Virus record (IMG/VR): IMGVR_UViG_3300045988_135825
Coordinates: 1-33,243 of that record
Reading direction: 5' to 3' (one strand)
Source: a virus
Length of the DNA: 33,243 nucleotides
The notes under the pieces are model-generated. The model was given only the letters and a program-made list of their open reading frames with translations, had not been told where the DNA came from and made no database searches. The stretch's first letter is position 1. The number at the start of each line of letters is the position of its first letter. The position numbers and the translations under genes are program-made. Positions 1,652 to 20,086 of this stretch are shown piece by piece.

Positions 1652-2032
1652 ATGCAATTTTTCACAATAGCAGAGTTCGAGGATAAATACCCAGACTATG
1701 CAAATGCTGATATTTCAACTTGGCAGATAGAAGCAGTAAGTGAGATGATTTTCTCACAAATAGGCTTAAGATATAGGGACACAAGTTGGGATACGACAAG
1801 TGTCCCTTTGCCTATTAAAAATGCTTCTATGGAACAAATGAGGTTCGTATTAGAACATGACATTCCATTTGTTGATTTTGATAAAGATATAAAGGCAGGA
1901 ACAATGAGTTCTCCTTTAAAGACTGATTATTCTACTTTAGCACTAAGAATACTTGCTAATAATGGATATCTATATAGAGGTACACCAATGTCTAGTAATA
2001 TGGCTCTTACTATACCATTTGGAGGCGAATAA
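1652..2032 (+). CDS. Head-tail connector / DNA-packaging (gp6/gp15-like) protein
   Basis: RBS aaaggaagtgag. 126 aa. First gene after the capsid gene, the usual connector position. Confidence 0.55.
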   Translation: MQFFTIAEFEDKYPDYANADISTWQIEAVSEMIFSQIGLRYRDTSWDTTSVPLPIKNASMEQMRFVLEHDIPFVDFDKDIKAGTMSSPLKTDYSTLALRILANNGYLYRGTPMSSNMALTIPFGGE

Positions 2033-2033
2033 A

Positions 2034-2354
2034 ATGTTTCTAGTAAATGGTATGAAAGCAACATTAAGGCAGTTTAATCGTGATGAAAATGATGAAATAT
2101 TTGATGATACTAATTATAAAGAAATCACAATTAAATGTTGTCCTTATGATTGCGAAAGTGCTATAAAGTTCGGTATTTATACAGTTCCTGAGGCTACTGG
2201 TTATTATCAAGTTGGAAGACTTGTTGATGTAAAAGCAGGAGACCAAATAATTTATCTAGGCAAATATGCCGATAATAAAGTTCATACAGTGTTAAAAGTT
2301 CAAGATAGTTGGATATTTAATAGAGTAGAAAATAAAATTATAGCGGTAAAATAA
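2034..2354 (+). CDS. Head closure / head-tail adaptor protein (start corrected to the internal ATG)
   Basis: ATG at 2034 follows ggaggcgaataaa. The longer track ORF from 1953 overlaps the previous gene and has no RBS. Confidence 0.55.
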   Translation: MFLVNGMKATLRQFNRDENDEIFDDTNYKEITIKCCPYDCESAIKFGIYTVPEATGYYQVGRLVDVKAGDQIIYLGKYADNKVHTVLKVQDSWIFNRVENKIIAVK

Positions 2355-2713
2355 TGGCTGATGTTAAAGTAAATTGGTATCCAGGAAAGAAAAAGGAAGT
2401 ATTAGAGGCTTCTGATAAGATAATGTATGCAATAGCAAGACAAACACTTGATAGAACATTTCCTCATATTCCTATGTCAAGAAGAAAAGGAGTAGTCCAC
2501 ATGAGACAAACTTCAATGGCAGCAGGAGTTAGAGGAAGTGATGGAAATTATTATATAGGTTCTTATACCAACTATGCTAAATATGTATGGGTTATGCCTA
2601 GAACTACTAATTGGAGTGAACCTGGTACTTTTGGCAAATGGTATCAAGAAATATATACTAAGCAAAAAAAGAGTATTGTTGGAATTGCTATAAAGGAGAA
2701 TGAATTGAAATGA
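2354..2713 (+). CDS. Neck / tail-joining structural protein
   Basis: taATG coupling with the previous gene. 119 aa. Position within the head-tail joining block. Confidence 0.5.
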   Translation: MADVKVNWYPGKKKEVLEASDKIMYAIARQTLDRTFPHIPMSRRKGVVHMRQTSMAAGVRGSDGNYYIGSYTNYAKYVWVMPRTTNWSEPGTFGKWYQEIYTKQKKSIVGIAIKENELK

Positions 2714-3159
2714 CAAGAGAATTATTAGAAAAGAAACAATTAATCTTAATTAAATATCTTCAAAATATAATTGGTGGTTATACCACTGACAAATGGAAAA
2801 TAAAAGCCGAATATTCAACAAATGATAATGATAGTAGGGTAATAGTCGTACAAGAACAAAGCGGACAAAAACAAGTATTTTATGGCGATATATTGCCTAT
2901 GTATAATTATTATATGATTGATATATATGGACTTACAATTAAAGAGTGCAAAGAGTTATCTTTATTAATAGGTAATCTAATAGGAAAATCGGAAAGAATA
3001 GAAGTTGAAAATAAAGAAACTAATAAATTGGAAAGGTGGCAAATTATATTTACTCAATATGTTAATCCACAAGCAATAGAGTATATGGATATCAGAAGAG
3101 TTGGTTATAATTCTACCTTACAATGTATCATAAGTAAGATTTATGAAAAAGATTTATAG
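2710..3159 (+). CDS. Tail completion / tail terminator-like protein
   Basis: ATGA overlap with the previous gene. 149 aa. Lies immediately upstream of the major tail gene. Confidence 0.5.
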   Translation: MTRELLEKKQLILIKYLQNIIGGYTTDKWKIKAEYSTNDNDSRVIVVQEQSGQKQVFYGDILPMYNYYMIDIYGLTIKECKELSLLIGNLIGKSERIEVENKETNKLERWQIIFTQYVNPQAIEYMDIRRVGYNSTLQCIISKIYEKDL

Positions 3160-3174
3160 AAAGGAAGTGTAAAT

Positions 3175-3648
3175 ATGAATGAATTTTATGTAAATAATAG
3201 AGAAGTCATTAAAAACTTAGGTTTAAATACTGGTACTAGTGCAGTCCCTACGTTTACTCCTATGTGTACAACTACCGAGGTTGGTTTGACAACTGATTTC
3301 GAGCAACAAGACTGGTATGTGTTCTGCGATGCTATTCAAAGAAGTATAATCACTGGTGCTGCCATCTCTATTGATACTACTGTTAAAATTGATATGAATA
3401 ATGCTTCTATAGTTAAGATACTTGGCGATATTCATACATTAATCAAAGAAGGTACTGTTGCTCAATTCAATAACCAATTAGTACAATTTGAATTATTAAC
3501 AGGAGTTCAAGAAGGAGCATTGACTTATACTAAGTATAAAGTACCTTGTACTTTGAACTTTAGTGATTTAGGTGGTGCTGCTGAAGATAGTGGCGAGTTT
3601 GCATTGACTATTGTTGTAACTGGTAAAGGAGAAGTTGTAACAGGATAA
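3175..3648 (+). CDS. Major tail (tube) protein
   Basis: RBS aaaggaagtg. 157 aa. Last gene before the tape measure, followed by a terminator-like hairpin, as is common for highly expressed tube genes. Confidence 0.6.
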   Translation: MNEFYVNNREVIKNLGLNTGTSAVPTFTPMCTTTEVGLTTDFEQQDWYVFCDAIQRSIITGAAISIDTTVKIDMNNASIVKILGDIHTLIKEGTVAQFNNQLVQFELLTGVQEGALTYTKYKVPCTLNFSDLGGAAEDSGEFALTIVVTGKGEVVTG

Positions 3649-3654
3649 ACCTAT

Positions 3655-3687
3655 AAGGGTTGGGTTAAAAGCCCAGCCCTTTATTTT
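3655..3687 (+). terminator. Intrinsic terminator/attenuator hairpin after the major tail gene
   Basis: aagggttggg (3655-3664) pairs with cccagccctt (3672-3681), 10 bp with one G-U. It is followed by tattttat. Confidence 0.6.
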
Positions 3688-3707
3688 ATAATAAGGAGGT
3701 GGAATAA

Positions 3708-6700
3708 ATGAATGGAGGAGAAGTCATCTTCAAGTTTAAAGGAGATGATAAAGACCTAGAAAAAAAGACTAATGGTGTCACTGGTAAATTGAAAGCGAGT
3801 ACTGTTGCTCTTGGTAATTTAATGTCTAGTGCTATTGAAAAAGTCGGCAGTTCTTTGTTAGGACTTGGCAAAGATGCCTTGCAAGGTGTTGCTGATTTAG
3901 AGCAGAATATAGGTGGTGTTGAGACACTTTTCAAAGATAGTGCTGATACAGTTATAGAGAACTCTAAAAAAGCCTATACAACAGCGGGAATAGATGCTAA
4001 TAAGTATATGGAGCAAATAACTTCATTTAGTGCTAGTTTATTACAAAGCCTAGGTGGGGATACTGCAGAGGCAGCCAAAGTTGGTGATATGGCTATTCAA
4101 GACATGGCGGATTAACAAAATAGTCCGAGTTAAACGCATTGAACCTTATCAAGGGTGTGTAGTGTAAACTATGCTAACGGTGAAACTCCTAACGTGAAGT
4201 CGAGGACAATACCGTGGTAAGCCTATGAAAATAGGAAACTGTAACGACTATTCCGAAAGGAAGTAGAATTATTATTGATACATAATTCGAAGTGGTGCGA
4301 TTGACATAAATACAAATTTATGGTATAATACTACCAAATAAAAGGAGGATTATACTGATGTGGAAAGATATAAAAGGATATGAAGAAATATATAAAATTT
4401 CTGATACAGGAGAAATATGGAGCAAGGATAGATGGTGCATTGATAAAAAAGGACGCAAAAGATTTAGAAAAGGAATGAAATTAAGCCCAGATATTGCTTC
4501 AAATGGTTATTATAGAATTACTTTTTCTAAAAATGGCAAAAAGGTACAAAAATATTTGCATAGATTAATTGCTGAATATTTTATACCTAATCCAAATAAT
4601 TATCCACAAGTAAATCATAAAGATGGAAATAAGTTAAATTGTAATATAAAAAACCTTGAGTGGGTTACAAATCAAGATAATATAATTCATGCTTATAAAA
4701 ATGGACTTATTAATCATGTTAGAGGAATTAATCATCCGAATTATGGTTTATGTGGTGGGAAAAGCAAAAAAGCAAAAAAAATAATCGCTAAGAATATAAT
4801 AACTGGCGAAACAAAAATTTATGATGCAATGATAGAAGCAAAAAAAGATGGATTTTTACCATCAGAGATTTCTAGATGTTGCAATCATGGAGGAACACAT
4901 CATGGATACGTATTTGAGTTAATATGAGATAGTCTACTCCCCTAATAAATATCGGGAAACCGAGGGTATTAAAGGAATTCAAACAAGTTTGGTACCGCAA
5001 TAGAAAACATTCAAAATGCTTATCAAGGCTTCGCTAAGCAGAATTATACGATAAAATCAATGTCTACTTAATTAGTGATAATTAAGTAAGTGTATGTGAA
5101 CTTTATCAAGGGTGTGAGATTAAAATATAAGTAGGAAATGACTTGTTGAGATAATCTTGCTAACTGGGGAAACCTAAGTCAAAAGATATGGTTATCCAGT
5201 GCCAAGCCTAGAAATAGGAAGGTCAAACGACTATGAGTTCGTTACTCAGTACAATATCTATTGATACGATATTGGAAGTGCATACTATCTCAAATGAGAT
5301 AAAGATATAGTCTAATCCCACTTTTAAATAAGTGTTAAAGTACTAGGAAACTAGGGGTATAAATGGTTAGATAATTTAAAACTCGGTTGAAAGACCATAG
5401 CCGAGTATAAACCGAAGAATTAAACTGGAAGCCCATCAAAAAAAGGGTAATCAGAACCGAAGGCTATACAAAGTATAGTCAGGGGCAACGCATAGAGGTT
5501 GAAAAGATATAATACCTCCACGAGGCTTCGGAACTTTATATAAGTTAAAAGATATGCTGAACTATATAGATGATAAATATATAGAAATAAAAGATAAAAA
5601 ACTTTTATGTTAACAAGTGTATGGTGGCACAAAAACAGAAATGGAAAGATTACTTGCTGATGCTGAAAAGATATCAGGAGTACATTATGACATTTCTAAT
5701 TTAAATGATGTATTTAATGCTATTCATGTAATTCAAGAAGAATTAGATGTAACAGGAACGACAGCAAAAGAAGCCTCTACTACTATAAGTGGTTCAATAA
5801 ATAGTGCTAAGTCAGCATTTAGTAATTTCCTAAGTGGTGCAGGTGGAATTGAAGAAGTAATAAGTACCTTTACTACTGCTGGAACAAACATATCAAATGC
5901 GATAGTAAAAATGGCACCTCAAATAATAACTGGTTTAACTACTTTATTGAATAATCTAGTACCTTTAATTGGCCCTTTACTTCAAGCGATATTACCAGCA
6001 TTGATACAAGGAACTTCAACATTAATAATGGGACTAGTTCAAGCATTGCCTGGTATTATTCAAATATTAATGGGTATGTTGCCTACTATAATTCAAGAAT
6101 TAGCAAATATGCTACCAGTTATACTTACTTCATTAATTCAAGGGTTAGTTATGATTATTCAAGAGTTGGCTAATCAATTACCTACATTGATACCAGTTAT
6201 AATAGATGCTATTCTTAGCACTATACCTATCTTAATTGATAATTTGCCTTTATTTATAGAGGCTGGTTTCAAATTACTAGGTGGCTTAATTGCTGGTATA
6301 TTAAATGCTCTTCCAATATTGCTAGCCAGAGCAGGAGAAATCGTTGTTGATTTAGTTGAATATTTCAAAGGAATGCCTAAGATGATGTGGGATTGTGGTA
6401 AAAATTTAATACAAGGCCTTTGGAATGGTATTAAGTCTGCTAAAGATTGGGTACTTGACAAGATAGCAGGTATAGGTAATTCAATAATGAAAAAAATCAA
6501 AGGAATATTTGGAGTACATAGCCCATCAACAGAGTTTGCATGGGTTGGTAAGATGAATATGCTAGGTTTAGAAAAAGGTATGGAAGATATGAAAGGACAA
6601 GTTAATTCAACAGTCGGAGGAATGTTTGATGATATGTTTAGTTTATCGCCTAGCCTATATGGAAGTTCAGGTACTAATTTAAGTCCACAAGTTAATGTAG

Positions 6701-6810
6701 TAGTAAATAACAATATGGAGCAAGACCCATTAGGACAAATGGTTAATAATATTAAGACATTTAGCGGTGGCTCTAAAAATGACTATAATTATGGAATGGG
6801 AGGAGCATAG
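3708..6810 (+). CDS. Tail tape measure protein, split gene: join(3708..4112, 4976..5052, 5366..5387, 5620..6810), 564 aa after splicing
   Basis: Exon 1 ends ...GDMAIQDMAD. A 77-nt exon encodes NSNKFGTAIENIQNAYQGFAKQNYT plus 'at'. A 22-nt exon supplies 'g' plus LDNLKLG. Exon 4 starts YGGTKTEMERLL. Joined, these rebuild the motif DMADN..K.G....IQNAYQGFAKQNYTMLDNLKLGYGGTKTEM, conserved in tape measures of Firmicute phages. Exon lengths 405+77+22+1188 = 1692 nt, divisible by 3. The C-terminal two thirds are hydrophobic and helical, typical of tape measures. Confidence 0.85.
4301..4329 (+). promoter_or_regulatory. Sigma-A-type promoter inside intron 1, driving the homing endonuclease ORF
   Basis: TTGACA (4301-4306), 17-nt spacer, TGgTATAAT (4321-4329). 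RBS aaaggagg lies before the ATG at 4358. Confidence 0.6.
4358..4927 (+). CDS. Intron-encoded HNH homing endonuclease (NUMOD4-like N-terminus plus HNH_3-type core)
   Basis: N-terminus MWKDIKGYEEIYKISDTGEIWS. Core motif VNHKDGNKLNCNIKNLEWVTNQDN. The ORF sits in a peripheral loop of intron 1 and its stop codon overlaps the 3' intron core (tgagatagtc). Confidence 0.85.
   Translation: MWKDIKGYEEIYKISDTGEIWSKDRWCIDKKGRKRFRKGMKLSPDIASNGYYRITFSKNGKKVQKYLHRLIAEYFIPNPNNYPQVNHKDGNKLNCNIKNLEWVTNQDNIIHAYKNGLINHVRGINHPNYGLCGGKSKKAKKIIAKNIITGETKIYDAMIEAKKDGFLPSEISRCCNHGGTHHGYVFELI
5053..5365 (+). mobile_element. Group I intron 2 in the tape measure gene (313 nt, ORF-less paralogue of intron 1)
   Basis: Shares blocks with intron 1: ttatcaagggtgtg, gctaac.g.gaaac.cctaa, aagccta.aaataggaa, aacgactat, atagtcta.tccc, ggaaac...ggggtat.aaa.g. 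Begins after U5052 and ends in G5365. Only these splice points give an in-frame ATG codon (at+g) and the TMLDNLKLG motif. Confidence 0.75.
5388..5619 (+). mobile_element. Group I-like intron 3 in the tape measure gene (232 nt, unrelated in sequence to introns 1 and 2)
   Basis: The 5' splice site follows U5387. A 6-bp P1 pairs ctcggU (5382-5387) with Gccgag (5400-5405), with a U-G wobble. The intron ends in G5619. Splicing joins ...LKLG to YGGTKTEM in frame. The class assignment was not verified by folding. Confidence 0.65.
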
Positions 6811-6812
6811 AT

Positions 6813-8303
6813 ATGAGTAGATTAAAAATGTTAATAAACAATGAAGAAGTAGTTTGCAATAAAGATTTTACTATAACAGAGGAAATGCTTGCTACTTCCT
6901 CTACCATTCTCAACAATTGTTATCCAAAAAGTTGGGAAAATGATAAAAATTATGTTTCAAGGTTTTATTATCCTAAAGACTACTCGAAATGTAAGATATA
7001 TAAAGATGATGTACTTGTTTTTTGTGGAGTAGTAAAAAATTCGGGGAACATAAGTCTTAACCCTAGATATCCTCACTTTTGCAGTTTGCAAATATTAGAT
7101 TTCAAAACTTTACTTAGTGAGGGCGAGACTTTAGATTATGTAATTAATAATAAGACAGTAATAGAGGCAATAGAAGATGCCATTGATGTAATTAGTTCTT
7201 ATGGCTTTGTGAAAGGAAATATAAATATATTTAATGGTGATGACATAATAGGTGCTTATTCTACTCAAAACATGACTGCTTATGATGTCTTTCAGTATTT
7301 TGCTGATATAACAGGTTCTAAGTGGTTTACTAGATTAGTGGATGAAGATACTGTGGCTATTGATTTCTATGACCCTACATTAATGCCTAAGGCTAATAAT
7401 TTAGAATATACAGAAGAATTCTTTGAAAATAATAACATTGTAGATATAAGTTTCAATTATGGAAGTAGAGATTATAGAAATAAACAAATAATGCAATCTG
7501 ATGAAGTATATGCTAGTATAGATTATATTGATAATTTAGTATCTAATGGCTATGATAGTACTTTCTTATTAACTTCAAATGTTGGTATAGTAAAAAGCAT
7601 AAAAGTAAATAATGTAGAAGTATCATTTACAACTAATGTAAATAAAGAAATAGGAATAGATGCTGATTTCTATTATACACCAGGCAAAAATCAAATAGAA
7701 AGTGCAGAAACTTATTCTGCAGGGACAAGAATTGAAATTGTCTACACACCTATTGTAAAAGGTAGACAAATAGTGTATAATAATGATGAAGTAGACAGAG
7801 TAGCAAATTCAATGGGTAGAAAAGGTATTATAGCAAGATATGAAAACAGAAATGATGCCATTTCTAGTTATGAATTAGATATGATAGGTCAGTCTTACAT
7901 TAAATATAAAGGCAGCACCGAAGTTAATTTAGTAGTCAAGACAAAAGATAAAGACCTTTATAATGTGGGAGAAGTTGTATATTTCGATGCTCCTATAGAT
8001 GACCTTAAGCAAGATTACATGGTAAAGAAAAAAGACATCAAGATAATTAATACAACTACACAAGAGTGCATTTTTTACACATACGAGTTATCAAGTTCAT
8101 TTAATAGTGAAAGAGCAATAAACTGGTTTGATAATCAGAGAAGAAAAGCAAAAGGAAATATAGGAGAAGGAGAGGCTATAACAAGAAATGTAGACATAGA
8201 AAATTCAGCAAATATAATATTTAATAATTATTCAAAAATTGAATTAAATGTAACAGGAGACAATACACTAAATTGTGGCTTAAATGCTCCATTTGTAAGT
8301 TAG
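6813..8303 (+). CDS. Tail tip / distal tail (baseplate hub-type) structural protein
   Basis: First gene after the tape measure, with an ATG 3 nt after its stop. 496 aa. Confidence 0.6.
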   Translation: MSRLKMLINNEEVVCNKDFTITEEMLATSSTILNNCYPKSWENDKNYVSRFYYPKDYSKCKIYKDDVLVFCGVVKNSGNISLNPRYPHFCSLQILDFKTLLSEGETLDYVINNKTVIEAIEDAIDVISSYGFVKGNINIFNGDDIIGAYSTQNMTAYDVFQYFADITGSKWFTRLVDEDTVAIDFYDPTLMPKANNLEYTEEFFENNNIVDISFNYGSRDYRNKQIMQSDEVYASIDYIDNLVSNGYDSTFLLTSNVGIVKSIKVNNVEVSFTTNVNKEIGIDADFYYTPGKNQIESAETYSAGTRIEIVYTPIVKGRQIVYNNDEVDRVANSMGRKGIIARYENRNDAISSYELDMIGQSYIKYKGSTEVNLVVKTKDKDLYNVGEVVYFDAPIDDLKQDYMVKKKDIKIINTTTQECIFYTYELSSSFNSERAINWFDNQRRKAKGNIGEGEAITRNVDIENSANIIFNNYSKIELNVTGDNTLNCGLNAPFVS

Positions 8304-19356: not shown

Positions 19357-19529
19357 TGGAAGAATTAATTATATTAAGTATATTTACTATGTCAGTTTTA
19401 GTGTATGAATTAGTTAAAACAAAAAAAGAAAATAAAATTCTTTATAACAATTATCAAACAGCATTGAAAATATTATCAGAATATGACCCTAAATTAAAAG
19501 AATATTTAGAAAGGGAGAATAAAATATAA
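19356..19529 (+). CDS. Hypothetical small membrane protein (57 aa, start corrected)
   Basis: ATG at 19356 follows ggagggaaat. TM segment LIILSIFTMSVLVYELV. Confidence 0.45.
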   Translation: MEELIILSIFTMSVLVYELVKTKKENKILYNNYQTALKILSEYDPKLKEYLERENKI

Positions 19530-20086
19530 TGACACAAAATGAAATATGGAAAGATATTCCAGGATACGAAGGTTTTTATCAAGCAAGTAATTTAGGGCGA
19601 ATAAAAAATTTATTGCTCTACAATAATAGATATAAAAAGTATAGTAAGAGAGAAAAGGTTTTAAAAACAACAACACAAAAAACTGGTTATTTAATGTTAA
19701 CGTTGTGTAAAGATAAGAAAAAAAGCAATTTGCTTGTTCATAGAATAATTGCAAAAACCTTTTTATCTAATCCAAATAATTATCCACAAGTAAATCATAA
19801 AGATGGAAACAAAAAGAATAATTGTGTTGATAATTTAGAATGGTGTACTTCTAAACAAAATAACAAACATGCTTTTGATACAGGACTAAACAAATATAAT
19901 CATGCTTTTGATAATTATCATTTTACTAAAAAAGTTGGGCAATATGATTTAAATGACAATTTTATAAAAGAATTTGATAGCATAACGAAAGCCTCAGTCG
20001 AAACAAACACACTTGTTCAAAATATTTGTAAAGTTTGCAAAGGAAAGCGAAAAAAAGCAGGAGGATATATTTGGAAATATCTTTAA
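19529..20086 (+). CDS. Free-standing HNH homing endonuclease (NUMOD4 plus HNH_3), paralogue of the intron-encoded enzyme
   Basis: N-terminus EIWKDIPGYEGFYQASNLGRIKN. Core motif VNHKDGNKKNNCVDNLEWCTSKQN. Shares 43 identical nt with the ORF at 4358-4927. Confidence 0.85.
   Translation: MTQNEIWKDIPGYEGFYQASNLGRIKNLLLYNNRYKKYSKREKVLKTTTQKTGYLMLTLCKDKKKSNLLVHRIIAKTFLSNPNNYPQVNHKDGNKKNNCVDNLEWCTSKQNNKHAFDTGLNKYNHAFDNYHFTKKVGQYDLNDNFIKEFDSITKASVETNTLVQNICKVCKGKRKKAGGYIWKYL

What the first reader, a model, noticed from the sequence alone, without database searches (positions are those of the whole stretch)
3708..6810. Tape-measure gene interrupted by three self-splicing-type introns within a 33-codon conserved motif
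Read literally, the tape measure is a 135-aa fragment (3708-4115) and a 397-aa fragment with a GTG start (5617-6810), separated by 1.5 kb.

Two tiny coding islands lie inside that gap. 4976-5052 encodes NSNKFGTAIENIQNAYQGFAKQNYT. 5366-5387 encodes (M)LDNLKLG.

Joining 4112|4976, 5052|5366 and 5387|5620 restores, in frame, the motif ...DMADN..K.G....IQNAYQGFAKQNYTMLDNLKLGYGGTKTEMERLL. This is one of the most conserved stretches of tape measures in Firmicute phages.

Every proposed 5' splice site follows a U and every intron ends in G, which are the group I rules. Introns 1 and 3 have clear P1 helices with the U-G wobble at the cleavage site.

Three introns within 105 nt of mature mRNA, with 77-nt and 22-nt exons, is an extreme case of intron stacking at a conserved homing target. 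Ordinary gene callers will report a broken tape measure.
Basis: partly seen in the sequence, partly recalled or inferred. Interest (0 to 1): 0.85.

Follow-up and report, generated by a model that had tools for sequence, protein, structure and literature searches.

The report
Tape-measure gene with three stacked introns
A gut phage's tail tape-measure gene is interrupted by three self-splicing-type (group I) introns within 99 coding bases, a rare arrangement of a well-known kind of element that makes gene callers report the gene as broken.

Summary
Joining 3708-4112 | 4976-5052 | 5366-5387 | 5620-6810 gives a 1695-nt, 564-aa tape measure. It is base-for-base colinear with the uninterrupted gene of 96-99 % identical phages.

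Relatives carry the three insertions in 7 of the 8 possible combinations. The two mini-exons differ from the intronless allele at 12 of 99 nt but at 0 of 33 residues, so they are translated.

- **Splice-site rules:** all three inserts follow a U and end in G.
- **Intron 2:** it matches Rfam group I end to end (43.5 bits, below the cut-off of 50). A homologue at the same site elsewhere scores 54.
- **Intron 1:** it shares this core (my model, 89.7 bits) and carries an I-HmuI-type HNH homing endonuclease gene behind a perfect sigma-70 promoter.
- **Intron 3:** Rfam misses it. It belongs to the family of the proven self-splicing Lactobacillus phage JCL1032 introns (86 bits), with compensatory changes in 44 of 52 pairs.

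This is not a new kind of thing. Phage Twort orf142 has three group I introns and a 23-nt exon, and tape-measure introns are already published. I file it as a new member of a known kind, of moderate interest. Splicing itself is untested.

The parts
3708..4112 (+). Tape measure exon 1 (405 nt, 135 codons). Its last 5 nt, CGGAU (4108-4112), form the 5' strand of intron 1's P1.
   Evidence: Colinear with L001 2294-3405. PHROG tape-measure families match the intronless homologue P0003 at E 4.5e-69.
4113..4975 (+). Intron 1 (site A), 863 nt, a group I intron of the IA type with P7.1 and P7.2.
- IGS GUCCG 4123-4127
- P3 4135-4141 / 4293-4299
- P4 4177-4181 / 4211-4215
- P6 4222-4235
- P7 4246-4250 / 4930-4934
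- P7.1 4252-4261
- P7.2 4266-4288
- P8 4300-4305 / 4918-4923, with the ORF in its loop
- P9 4939-4966
- terminal G at 4975
   Evidence: Absent from the intronless alleles, with exact junctions. Model R2, built from intron 2, hits 4134-4329 at 89.7 bits, E 2.5e-22. ORF-deleted versions exist in L018, L019 and L031.
4301..4329 (+). Perfect sigma-70 promoter consensus (TTGACA, 17 nt spacer, TG-TATAAT) inside intron 1, 29 nt upstream of the endonuclease ATG. Its -35 box overlaps the P8 5' strand.
   Evidence: 12 of 12 consensus matches, the only such site in 3500-7000. Function is inferred.
4358..4927 (+). Intron-encoded HNH homing endonuclease, 189 aa, of the I-HmuI type. Its last codons overlap the P8 3' strand and J8/7.
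   Evidence: Pfam NUMOD4 (47 bits) and HNH_3 (44.7 bits), both above their cut-offs. Matches PDB 1U3E (I-HmuI) at E 7e-15. PHROG HNH endonuclease at E 2.6e-44.
4976..5052 (+). Exon 2, 77 nt, encoding NSNKFGTAIENIQNAYQGFAKQNYT plus the first 2 nt of the Met codon.
   Evidence: Colinear with L001 3406-3482 at 87.8 % nucleotide identity with 0 amino-acid changes.
5053..5365 (+). Intron 2 (site B), 313 nt, an ORF-less group I intron of the IA type.
- P10/P1 guide AAU-GUC 5059-5064
- P2 5066-5087
- P3 5092-5098 / 5279-5285
- P3.1 5100-5113
- P3.2 5117-5157
- P4 5163-5167 / 5196-5200
- P6 5207-5218
- P7 5229-5233 / 5308-5312
- P7.1 5234-5248
- P7.2 5252-5274
- P8 5287-5300
- P9 5317-5357
- terminal G at 5365
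   Evidence: RF00028 match 5092-5334 over model positions 1-253, 43.5 bits, E 2.4e-9. The L031 homologue at the same site scores 54 bits, above the cut-off. Covariation: 94.3 % of cells paired and 38 of 55 pairs compensatory. MFE z-score -4.5.
5366..5387 (+). Exon 3, 22 nt, encoding the last base of Met plus LDNLKLG. Its first 3 nt can form P10 of intron 2, and its last 6 nt (CUCGGU) form P1 of intron 3.
   Evidence: Colinear with L001 3483-3504.
5388..5619 (+). Intron 3 (site C), 232 nt, an ORF-less group I intron of the JCL1032 terminase-intron family.
- IGS GCCGAG 5400-5405
- P3 5412-5417 / 5526-5531
- P4-P5 5425-5454
- P6 5462-5480
- P7 5490-5493 / 5554-5557
- P7.1-like hairpin 5495-5518
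- P8 5532-5546
- P9 5562-5584
- P9.1 5587-5608
- terminal G at 5619
   Evidence: Model R1 finds the JCL1032 terL intron (86 bits), the JCL1032 TMP intron (46.6 bits) and the PMBT8 terL intron (70 bits). Covariation: 95.7 % of cells paired, 44 of 52 pairs compensatory, 0 of 500 shuffles as high. P7 covaries. MFE alone recovers P1, P3-P6, P8, P9 and P9.1, z-score -5.3.
5620..6810 (+). Exon 4, 1191 nt including the stop, starting YGGTKTEMERLL. The GTG at 5617 that gene callers use as a start lies in the intron's last 3 nt.
   Evidence: Colinear with L001 3505-4695 at 96.8 % identity.

Best explanation
The window is a roughly 33-kb siphophage genome from gut metagenomes. Its closest named relative is a prophage protein of Intestinibacter sp.

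Its tape-measure gene carries three separate group I introns at three hot-spot sites, here called A, B and C. The sites lie 77 and 22 nt apart inside the conserved motif DMAD|N...QNYT(M)|LDNLKLG|YGGTK.

Each intron is transcribed with the gene and folds into the group I core (P1, P3-P9). It then removes itself by the two guanosine-initiated transesterifications, and the ligated mRNA encodes one 564-aa tape measure. These steps are inferred.

Intron 1 carries an I-HmuI-type HNH endonuclease gene with its own promoter. In mixed infections the enzyme should cut intronless alleles, and repair would copy the intron, plus flanking exon sequence, into them. This is homing, and it is also inferred.

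Introns 2 and 3 have lost their endonuclease genes here. Relatives still carry HNH genes at both sites.

Shown in silico: exact exon boundaries, independent presence or absence of each intron, protein-level selection on the mini-exons, and group I architecture with covariation.

Inferred only: catalysis, order of splicing, and endonuclease activity and target.
For: **1. Exact boundaries.** Intronless L001 equals exon1+2+3+4 with no indel, and the junctions cannot slide. There are 42 proteins of 564 aa at 96-99 % identity.

**2. Independent mobility.** Occupancy states seen among relatives are none, B, C, B+C, A+C, A+B+C and A without B or C. The last is L002, a contig that starts inside intron A.

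**3. Mini-exons are translated.** The window differs from the intronless allele at 12 of 99 nt and at 0 of 33 residues. The same pattern holds in nearly all of the 18 alleles compared.

**4. Splice-site rules.** There is a U before each 5' site and a G at each intron end.
- P1 is CGGAU/GUCCG for intron 1 and CUCGGU/GCCGAG for intron 3, each with a terminal U.G pair.
- Synonymous exon bases that strengthen P1 are found only in intron-bearing alleles: G at -4 of site A in 4 of 4 carriers against 0 of 16 non-carriers, and G at -3 of site B in 12 of 12 against 0 of 8.

**5. Ribozyme cores.**
- RF00028 matches intron 2 at E 2.4e-9, and its L031 homologue scores above the cut-off.
- Model R2 links intron 1 to intron 2.
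- Model R1 links intron 3 to both JCL1032 introns. PMC6669764, citing Riipinen & Alatossava 2004, describes these as proven self-splicing.
- Covariation is strong in both families.

**6. Endonuclease life cycle.** The gene is intact in the window and L015 (site A), L013 (site B) and L027, L028, L029, L032 and L015 (site C). It is frameshifted in L010, and deleted in L018, L019 and L031.

**7. Same sites in unrelated phages.** Lactococcus phage 38502 has site B with an HNH gene. Streptococcus phage MissG1 has site C, annotated as ncRNA. A Tissierellia MAG (L031) has sites A and B.
Against: - No RNA data exist, so splicing has not been observed.
- None of the three window introns reaches Rfam's curated group I score (43.5, 14 and 13 bits against 50).
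- Intron 2's P1 is only 3 bp, and no covariation is available for it because its exon context never varies.
- The covariation alignments were fitted to my own models, which biases pair counts upward. The slid-partner controls (32-42 % paired) argue that this bias is small.
- P7 of intron 3 is only 4 bp.
Confidence: 0.92

Rival explanations
1. One or more of the inserts, most likely the ORF-less introns 2 or 3 or the weak-P1 intron 2, is a decayed intron that no longer splices. This particular genome would then be a defective phage with a broken tape measure.
For: Introns 2 and 3 lack endonuclease genes. Intron 2's P1 is 3 bp. Rfam scores are below the cut-off.
Against: - The same ORF-less introns occur nearly unchanged in many independent full-length, roughly 33-kb contigs.
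- All core helices are intact.
- The mini-exons show only synonymous change, which would not hold in dead genes.
Confidence: 0.04
2. The inserts are not spliced. The tape measure works as separate N-terminal (135 aa) and C-terminal (397 aa) polypeptides, as gene callers and GenBank records for similar phages imply.
For: GenBank annotates Lactococcus phage 38502 and Streptococcus phage MissG1 as two tape-measure or tail proteins. A GTG start exists at 5617.
Against: - Exons 2 and 3 have no start or ribosome-binding signals of their own, yet they are conserved at the protein level.
- The boundaries coincide to the base with intronless alleles.
- The inserts carry group I cores.
Confidence: 0.02
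3. The inserts are another class of element: group II introns, inteins, IStron-like transposon-ribozyme fusions, or assembly artefacts.
For: None found.
Against: - The lengths (863, 313 and 232 nt) are not multiples of 3 and contain in-frame stops, so they are not inteins.
- There is no reverse transcriptase or transposase gene and no group II hit in Rfam.
- The arrangement recurs in independent JGI, ENA and Logan assemblies.
Confidence: 0.01

Closest known systems
Staphylococcus phage Twort orf142 (tail tube gene) with three self-splicing group I introns (Landthaler & Shub 1999, as described in PMC10136302 and PMC11878797)
   Same: A phage tail structural gene carrying three group I introns, with a tiny internal exon (23 nt in Twort, 22 nt here). 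The ribozymes are IA-type, and HNH-type intron endonucleases occur in the same phage group.
   Different: - The host gene differs (tape measure rather than tail tube), as does the phage type (a 33-kb siphophage of a gut clostridial host).
- In Twort the two introns flanking the tiny exon are near-identical, and exon skipping occurs. Here they belong to different ribozyme families, while introns 1 and 2 are the related pair (63 % identity over the aligned core).
- Twort splicing is experimentally shown. Here it is inferred.
Group I introns TMP-IVS1, IVS2 and IVS3 in tape-measure genes of Bacillus cereus-group prophages (Tourasse & Kolsto 2008, PMC2504315)
   Same: - Three recurrent intron sites in a tape-measure gene.
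- IA1/IA2-type ribozymes.
- Related introns adapted to different sites through P1.
- Different introns sharing one site with nearly identical P1/IGS. The same is seen here at site C, where WIN-type, MissG1/L027-type and L015/L032-type cores occur.
- Gain and loss of HNH genes.
   Different: In that paper the described combinations are two introns per gene, and the sites are separated by a central part of a tape measure of more than 1200 aa. Here all three lie within 99 nt and co-occur in one gene. I could not check whether any Bacillus site is homologous to A, B or C.
Lactobacillus delbrueckii phage JCL1032 terminase and tape-measure introns (Riipinen & Alatossava 2004, cited in PMC6669764; GenBank EU409559 joined CDS)
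   Same: Intron 3 is a structural homologue of both. R1 scores 86 and 46.6 bits, with the same helix order and compensatory changes in P3, P4, P6, P8, P9 and P9.1. One of the two sits in a tape-measure gene.
   Different: The JCL1032 tape measure belongs to a different family, and its intron lies at a different motif (...LANRG | ...GTRAGTGLRK). There is one intron per gene.
I-HmuI, the HNH nicking homing endonuclease of the Bacillus phage SPO1 DNA polymerase intron (PDB 1U3E)
   Same: The intron 1 ORF aligns over residues 2-120 at E 7e-15, with the NUMOD4 and HNH_3 domains, and is encoded inside a group I intron.
   Different: The C-terminal DNA-binding half is not detectably similar. Target site and nicking activity are untested.

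Membership tests
Group I intron | The 5' splice site follows a U that forms a U.G wobble at the end of P1 with an internal guide sequence | tested here: met
   - Intron 1: CGGAU (4108-4112) pairs with GUCCG (4123-4127).
- Intron 3: CUCGGU (5382-5387) pairs with GCCGAG (5400-5405). P1 covaries in homologues at other sites.
- Intron 2: only GAU/GUC (3 bp). This is supported by G at -3 being present in 12 of 12 carriers and 0 of 8 non-carriers.
Group I intron | The intron ends in a G (omega G) | tested here: met
   Positions 4975, 5365 and 5619 are G, and the junctions are fixed by the intronless allele.
Group I intron | Conserved catalytic core P3-P8, with the P3/P7 pseudoknot and the J8/7 consensus | tested here: met
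   All helices are located. Covariation gives 95.7 % and 94.3 % of cells paired, with 44 of 52 and 38 of 55 pairs compensatory. P7 covaries (GCAU/AUGC, GCUU/AAGC, GACUA/UAGUC). The J8/7 sequences AAGAUAUAGUC, GAGAUAGUC and AAAGAUAUGC are present.
Group I intron | Match to Rfam RF00028 at the curated gathering score (50 bits) | tested here: not met
   Window introns score 43.5 bits (intron 2, E 2.4e-9), 14 bits (intron 1) and 13 bits (intron 3). The homologue of intron 2 at the same site in L031 scores 54 bits. This reflects limited model sensitivity for phage IA introns with an ORF or extra helices. It is not positive evidence against membership.
Group I intron | Guanosine-dependent self-splicing that yields ligated exons | not testable with these tools
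   No RNA data. Homologues of intron 3 (the JCL1032 introns) are reported as proven self-splicing (PMC6669764).
Group I intron | Precise absence from otherwise identical alleles (a mobile insertion) | tested here: met
   Intronless alleles L001, L003, L004, L005, L006 and L020, plus 7 of the 8 possible occupancy states.
Subgroup IA (phage-type) group I introns | Extra helices P7.1/P7.2 between P7 and the 3' strand of P3 | tested here: met
   - Intron 1: 4252-4261 and 4266-4288.
- Intron 2: 5234-5248 and 5252-5274. All 7 pairs of P7.2 covary.
- Intron 3: one such hairpin, 5495-5518.
HNH homing endonuclease, I-HmuI type | NUMOD4 and HNH_3 domains above the Pfam cut-offs, with similarity to I-HmuI | tested here: met
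   (47 and 44.7 bits against cut-offs of 23.4 and 24.8). (1U3E, E 7e-15).
HNH homing endonuclease, I-HmuI type | Site-specific cleavage or nicking of the intronless allele | not testable with these tools
   Inferred only.
Phage tail tape measure protein | Homology to tape-measure families, and position among tail genes | tested here: met
   PHROG 6900, 58, 3981 and others at E down to 4.5e-69 for the 99 % identical intronless protein. tblastn hits to annotated tape measures and PblA.

The most novel reading that the evidence does not exclude
The stacking may be functional rather than accidental, in one of two ways.

(a) The ORF-less introns 2 and 3 persist by hitch-hiking. They lie 77 and 99 nt from the site cut by intron 1's HNH enzyme (or by the free-standing I-HmuI-like enzyme at 19529-20086). 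They would therefore be copied along in its co-conversion tract, making the three a cooperative homing unit.

(b) Joining the 5' site of intron 1 directly to the 3' site of intron 3 would skip both mini-exons. The product stays in frame, giving a 531-aa tape measure that lacks the 33-residue motif. That could provide a second tail-length or regulatory isoform, analogous to Twort exon skipping.
Probability: 0.12. Interest if true: 0.65.

Novelty: new member of a known kind. Interest (0 to 1): 0.45.

Why it matters
- **Annotation.** Automatic annotation splits this essential gene into a 135-aa and a 397-aa 'protein'. The database holds hundreds of such fragments (clusters of 397, 389 and 404 aa). 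GenBank records for Lactococcus phage 38502 and Streptococcus phage MissG1 make the same error at the same sites. Recognising sites A, B and C would correct tape-measure lengths, and therefore predicted tail lengths, in many Firmicute phages.
- **Biology.** The metagenomic relatives form a natural series with almost every combination of three introns 77 and 22 nt apart. Endonuclease genes in the series are intact, frameshifted or deleted, and exon changes are linked to each intron. This is a ready-made system for studying homing, co-conversion, intron loss and possible exon skipping between closely stacked ribozymes. So far that has been studied mainly in Twort orf142.

Tried and rejected
- **Rfam on the whole window.** The gathering threshold gave nothing. 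In E-value mode on the whole window even intron 2 is lost to the filters. Only the short-region scan shows it.
- **Larger intron 2 models.** I used the 227-position core instead, so P1, P2 and P9 of introns 1 and 2 rest on inspection and MFE folding only.
- **Longer P1 for intron 2.** I considered a three-way P1 in which exon UAUAC pairs with GUGUA after the P2 hairpin. I rejected it because that segment is the 5' strand of P3, which covaries cleanly (GUAUGUG/UGCAUAC, GCUCGUG/UGCGAGC, GUACGUG/UGCGUAC, CGCAUUG/UGGUGCG).
- **Rfam's placement of P3 in intron 2.** Rfam uses AAUCU-UG. This was rejected for the same reason, since only 5 of 7 pairs form.
- **P10 for intron 1.** No convincing pairing was found.
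- **A fourth intron.** I tested the second HNH gene at 19529-20086 for one. There was no group I signal and no hit from models R1 or R2, so it appears free-standing.
- **JCL1032 tape-measure intron.** I checked whether it sits at site A, B or C. It does not; it is a different tape-measure family and motif.
- **Close relatives among sequenced phages.** None was found. Megablast returns only short intron-core matches.
Full report
**What is there**

The region reads as the first-stage reader described.
- A 135-codon ORF runs 3708-4115, and a 397-codon ORF with a GTG start runs 5617-6810. They are 1.5 kb apart.
- The gap contains a 189-codon ORF (4358-4927).
- Joining 3708-4112, 4976-5052, 5366-5387 and 5620-6810 gives 1695 nt in frame and a 564-aa product.
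- The window has 27.7 % G+C. Related contigs are 31-34 kb, so it is probably a whole siphophage genome.
- A 564-aa member of a cluster whose representative is 89 % identical is named 'phage tail protein [Intestinibacter sp.]'. The best DNA match in a genome collection is a 'Bacilli bacterium' MAG contig.

**Are the junctions real?**

Yes.
- The conceptual protein finds 42 database proteins of exactly 564 aa at 96-99 % identity over its full length. It also finds clusters of 397-, 389-, 404-, 374- and 367-aa C-terminal fragments, which are what gene callers make of interrupted copies.
- I fetched the DNA of one intronless relative (L001, JGI 3300029815). Its 1695-nt gene is colinear with the four window exons, with no base gained or lost.
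- The boundaries cannot slide for the first two inserts, and can slide by only 1 nt (a T) for the third.
- PHROG profiles identify the uninterrupted protein as a tail length tape measure, E 4.5e-69.
- The region around the motif is conserved. 363 phage records cover at least 80 % of a 162-aa query at up to about 74 % identity, including Streptococcus PblA, Lactococcus and Microbacterium phages.

**Population evidence**

A scan of IMG/VR and of GTDB genomes returned about 20 close relatives. I mapped them on the intronless gene, naming the sites A (405|406), B (482|483) and C (504|505).

| Sites occupied | Loci |
|---|---|
| none | L001, L003, L004, L005, L006, L020 |
| B only | L007, L030, L009, L010, L013 |
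| C only | L011, L012 |
| B + C | L008, L014, L016, L017 |
| A + C | L015 |
| A + B + C | the window, L018, L019 |
| A, without B or C | L002 (a contig that begins inside the A insert) |

- That is 7 of the 8 possible states, so the three inserts are separate, independently gained or lost elements.
- Distant tape measures use the same sites:
  - Lactococcus phage 38502 uses B, with an HNH gene, and is annotated as two tape-measure proteins.
  - Streptococcus phage MissG1 uses C, annotated as 'ncRNA'.
  - A Tissierellia MAG (L031) uses A and B.
  - L027, L028, L029 and L032 use C.
- The mini-exons are under protein-level selection. The window differs from the intronless allele at 12 of 99 nt and at 0 of 33 residues, and the same holds for nearly all of the 18 alleles compared. 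They must therefore be read in frame with exons 1 and 4.
- Each insert is also perfectly linked to synonymous exon variants next to its site that improve pairing with its guide sequence:
  - GCG GAT|AAT occurs with A, in 4 of 4 carriers against 0 of 16 non-carriers for the G at -4.
  - ACG AT|G occurs with B, in 12 of 12 carriers against 0 of 8 non-carriers.
  - CTC GGT| occurs with C.
- This is the signature of co-conversion, of selection for P1, or of both.

**Are they group I introns?**

All three follow a U and end in G.

*Intron 2* (5053-5365)
- It matches Rfam RF00028 over the whole model (positions 1-253) at 43.5 bits, E 2.4e-9. That is below the curated 50 bits.
- Its homologue at the same site in L031 scores 54 bits.
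- It has the P7.1 and P7.2 helices of the phage IA subgroup.

*Intron 1* (4113-4975)
- It gets only 14 bits from Rfam, because a 570-nt ORF sits in P8.
- A covariance model built from the intron 2 core (R2) hits 4134-4329 at 89.7 bits, E 2.5e-22. The alignment runs through P3, P4-P6, P7, P7.1, P7.2 and the 3' strand of P3.
- Beyond the ORF lie the P8 3' strand, J8/7, the P7 3' strand (GAGAUAGUC) and a P9 like that of intron 2.
- Both 3' ends resemble the terminase introns of Staphylococcus Twort-like phages.
- On the R2 alignment 94.3 % of cells pair and 38 of 55 pairs show compensatory change. Slid-partner controls give 33-40 %.

*Intron 3* (5388-5619)
- It is invisible to Rfam (13 bits).
- From a helix assignment made by eye I built model R1. 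It recovers at full length the terminase intron of Lactobacillus phage JCL1032 (86 bits, E 3e-23).
- It also recovers that phage's tape-measure intron (46.6 bits), the PMBT8 terminase intron (70 bits) and the MissG1 site-C intron (66 bits).
- The JCL1032 genes are deposited as joined CDS. PMC6669764, citing Riipinen & Alatossava 2004, describes these introns as proven self-splicing.
- On this alignment 95.7 % of cells pair and 44 of 52 pairs have compensatory changes. None of 500 shuffles reaches that, and slid controls give 32-42 %.
- The P7 pseudoknot covaries as well.
- Thermodynamic folding alone recovers most helices of introns 2 and 3, with z-scores of -4.5 and -5.3.
- Caveat: the covariation alignments were fitted to my own models, which inflates pairing somewhat.

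*P1 helices*
- Intron 1 has CGGAU/GUCCG and intron 3 has CUCGGU/GCCGAG, both with the terminal U.G pair.
- Intron 2 has only GAU/GUC, preceded by AAU, which can pair with the first bases of exon 3 (P10).

**The endonuclease**
- ORF 4358-4927 has NUMOD4 and HNH_3 domains. It aligns to I-HmuI (PDB 1U3E) at E 7e-15.
- It lies in the P8 loop, and its last codons overlap the P8 3' strand.
- A 12-of-12 sigma-70 consensus with an extended -10 box sits at 4301-4329.
- Relatives show the whole life cycle of such genes:
  - Intact HNH ORFs occur in site-B introns (L013) and in site-C introns (L015, L027, L028, L029, L032).
  - L010 carries a frameshifted copy.
  - L018, L019 and L031 carry internal-deletion remnants in site A.

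**Mechanism proposed**

The gene is transcribed through all three introns. Each ribozyme folds and excises itself, and ligation restores the 564-aa reading frame. The intron 1 enzyme attacks intronless alleles in co-infections and drives gene conversion. All steps from RNA folding onward are inferred.

Skipping exon 2 or exon 3 alone would shift the frame, giving stops at codons 138 or 189. Skipping both stays in frame and gives 531 aa.

**Comparison with what is known**

This is a known kind of element in a known kind of place.
- Twort orf142, a tail tube gene, has three group I introns, a 23-nt exon between the second and third, and exon skipping (PMC10136302 and PMC11878797).
- Tourasse & Kolsto (PMC2504315) described group I introns at three sites in tape-measure genes of Bacillus cereus-group prophages. 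They found related introns retargeted through P1, and different introns sharing one site with the same P1.
- I see both phenomena here. Introns at A and B are related (63 % identity over the aligned core). Site C is occupied by three different ribozyme types carrying the same guide sequence.
- JCL1032 has a proven tape-measure intron, but in another tape-measure family and at another motif.
- Features that appear new compared with the published cases I examined:
  - All three sites lie within 99 nt.
  - All three are occupied in one gene, here and in L018 and L019.
  - The host gene and phage group differ from the published cases.
  - A near-complete natural series of occupancy states exists.

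**Verdict**

I rate it a new member of a known kind, of moderate interest (0.45). Its value is mainly as an annotation fix and as a natural system for studying stacked-intron dynamics.

Noticed in passing
window 19529-20086 (+): A second I-HmuI-type homing endonuclease gene, 185 aa, with NUMOD4, HNH_3, NUMOD1 and I-HmuI NUMOD-like domains. It lies among small replication-module ORFs. No group I signal surrounds it (no R1 or R2 hit), so it appears free-standing. It could act in trans on the ORF-less introns.
   Followed up: partly
window 4143-4171 and 5100-5157: In introns 1 and 2, two extra hairpins lie between the 5' strand of P3 and J3/4-P4. The first is the conserved ACCUU-AUCA-AGGGU and the second is variable. 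This is an unusual place for an insertion in a group I core. Site-C introns of the MissG1, L015 and L027 types, which have the same P3 consensus (NNNNGUG/UGCNNNN), lack it. The motif also occurs in a few Staphylococcus phage records. Rfam's model mis-assigns it as P2.
   Followed up: partly
window 4301-4329: A perfect TTGACA-17-TATAAT promoter inside intron 1. Its -35 box overlaps the P8 5' strand (4300-4305). Endonuclease transcripts that start here would therefore lack most of the ribozyme.
   Followed up: no
window 3655-3681: A strong terminator-like hairpin (12 bp, followed by a T-run) lies immediately upstream of the tape-measure ribosome-binding site, between ORF 3175-3648 and the tape-measure start. 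The two ORFs upstream (2710-3159, 3175-3648) and the ORF downstream (6813-8303) have no PHROG match.
   Followed up: no
L038 (bajarodcaudo virus 1, PQ006092) 385-534, 1452-1641, 2201-2346: The major capsid gene of this 98-kb rodent-gut phage is annotated in several small pieces alongside an 'intron associated endonuclease'. Model R1 gives three hits there (68, 41.7 and 16 bits). This looks like another multiply intron-split structural gene.
   Followed up: no
L015 4098-4893, L032, L034, L027-L029 (site C): Site C carries at least three different ribozyme types. The window has a JCL1032-like core. MissG1 and L027 have an IA2-like core with the identical P1/IGS UAGCCGAGUAUAAAC. L015 and L032 have a core and 5' end like intron 1. 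This suggests exchange of P1 modules or repeated retargeting.
   Followed up: partly
L033 (Lactococcus phage 38502, KX160204) 1984-5218; L034 (Streptococcus phage MissG1, OL774877) 2237-4923: In these public records the tape measure is annotated as two separate proteins because of an unrecognised site-B intron (38502) or site-C intron (MissG1).
   Followed up: yes
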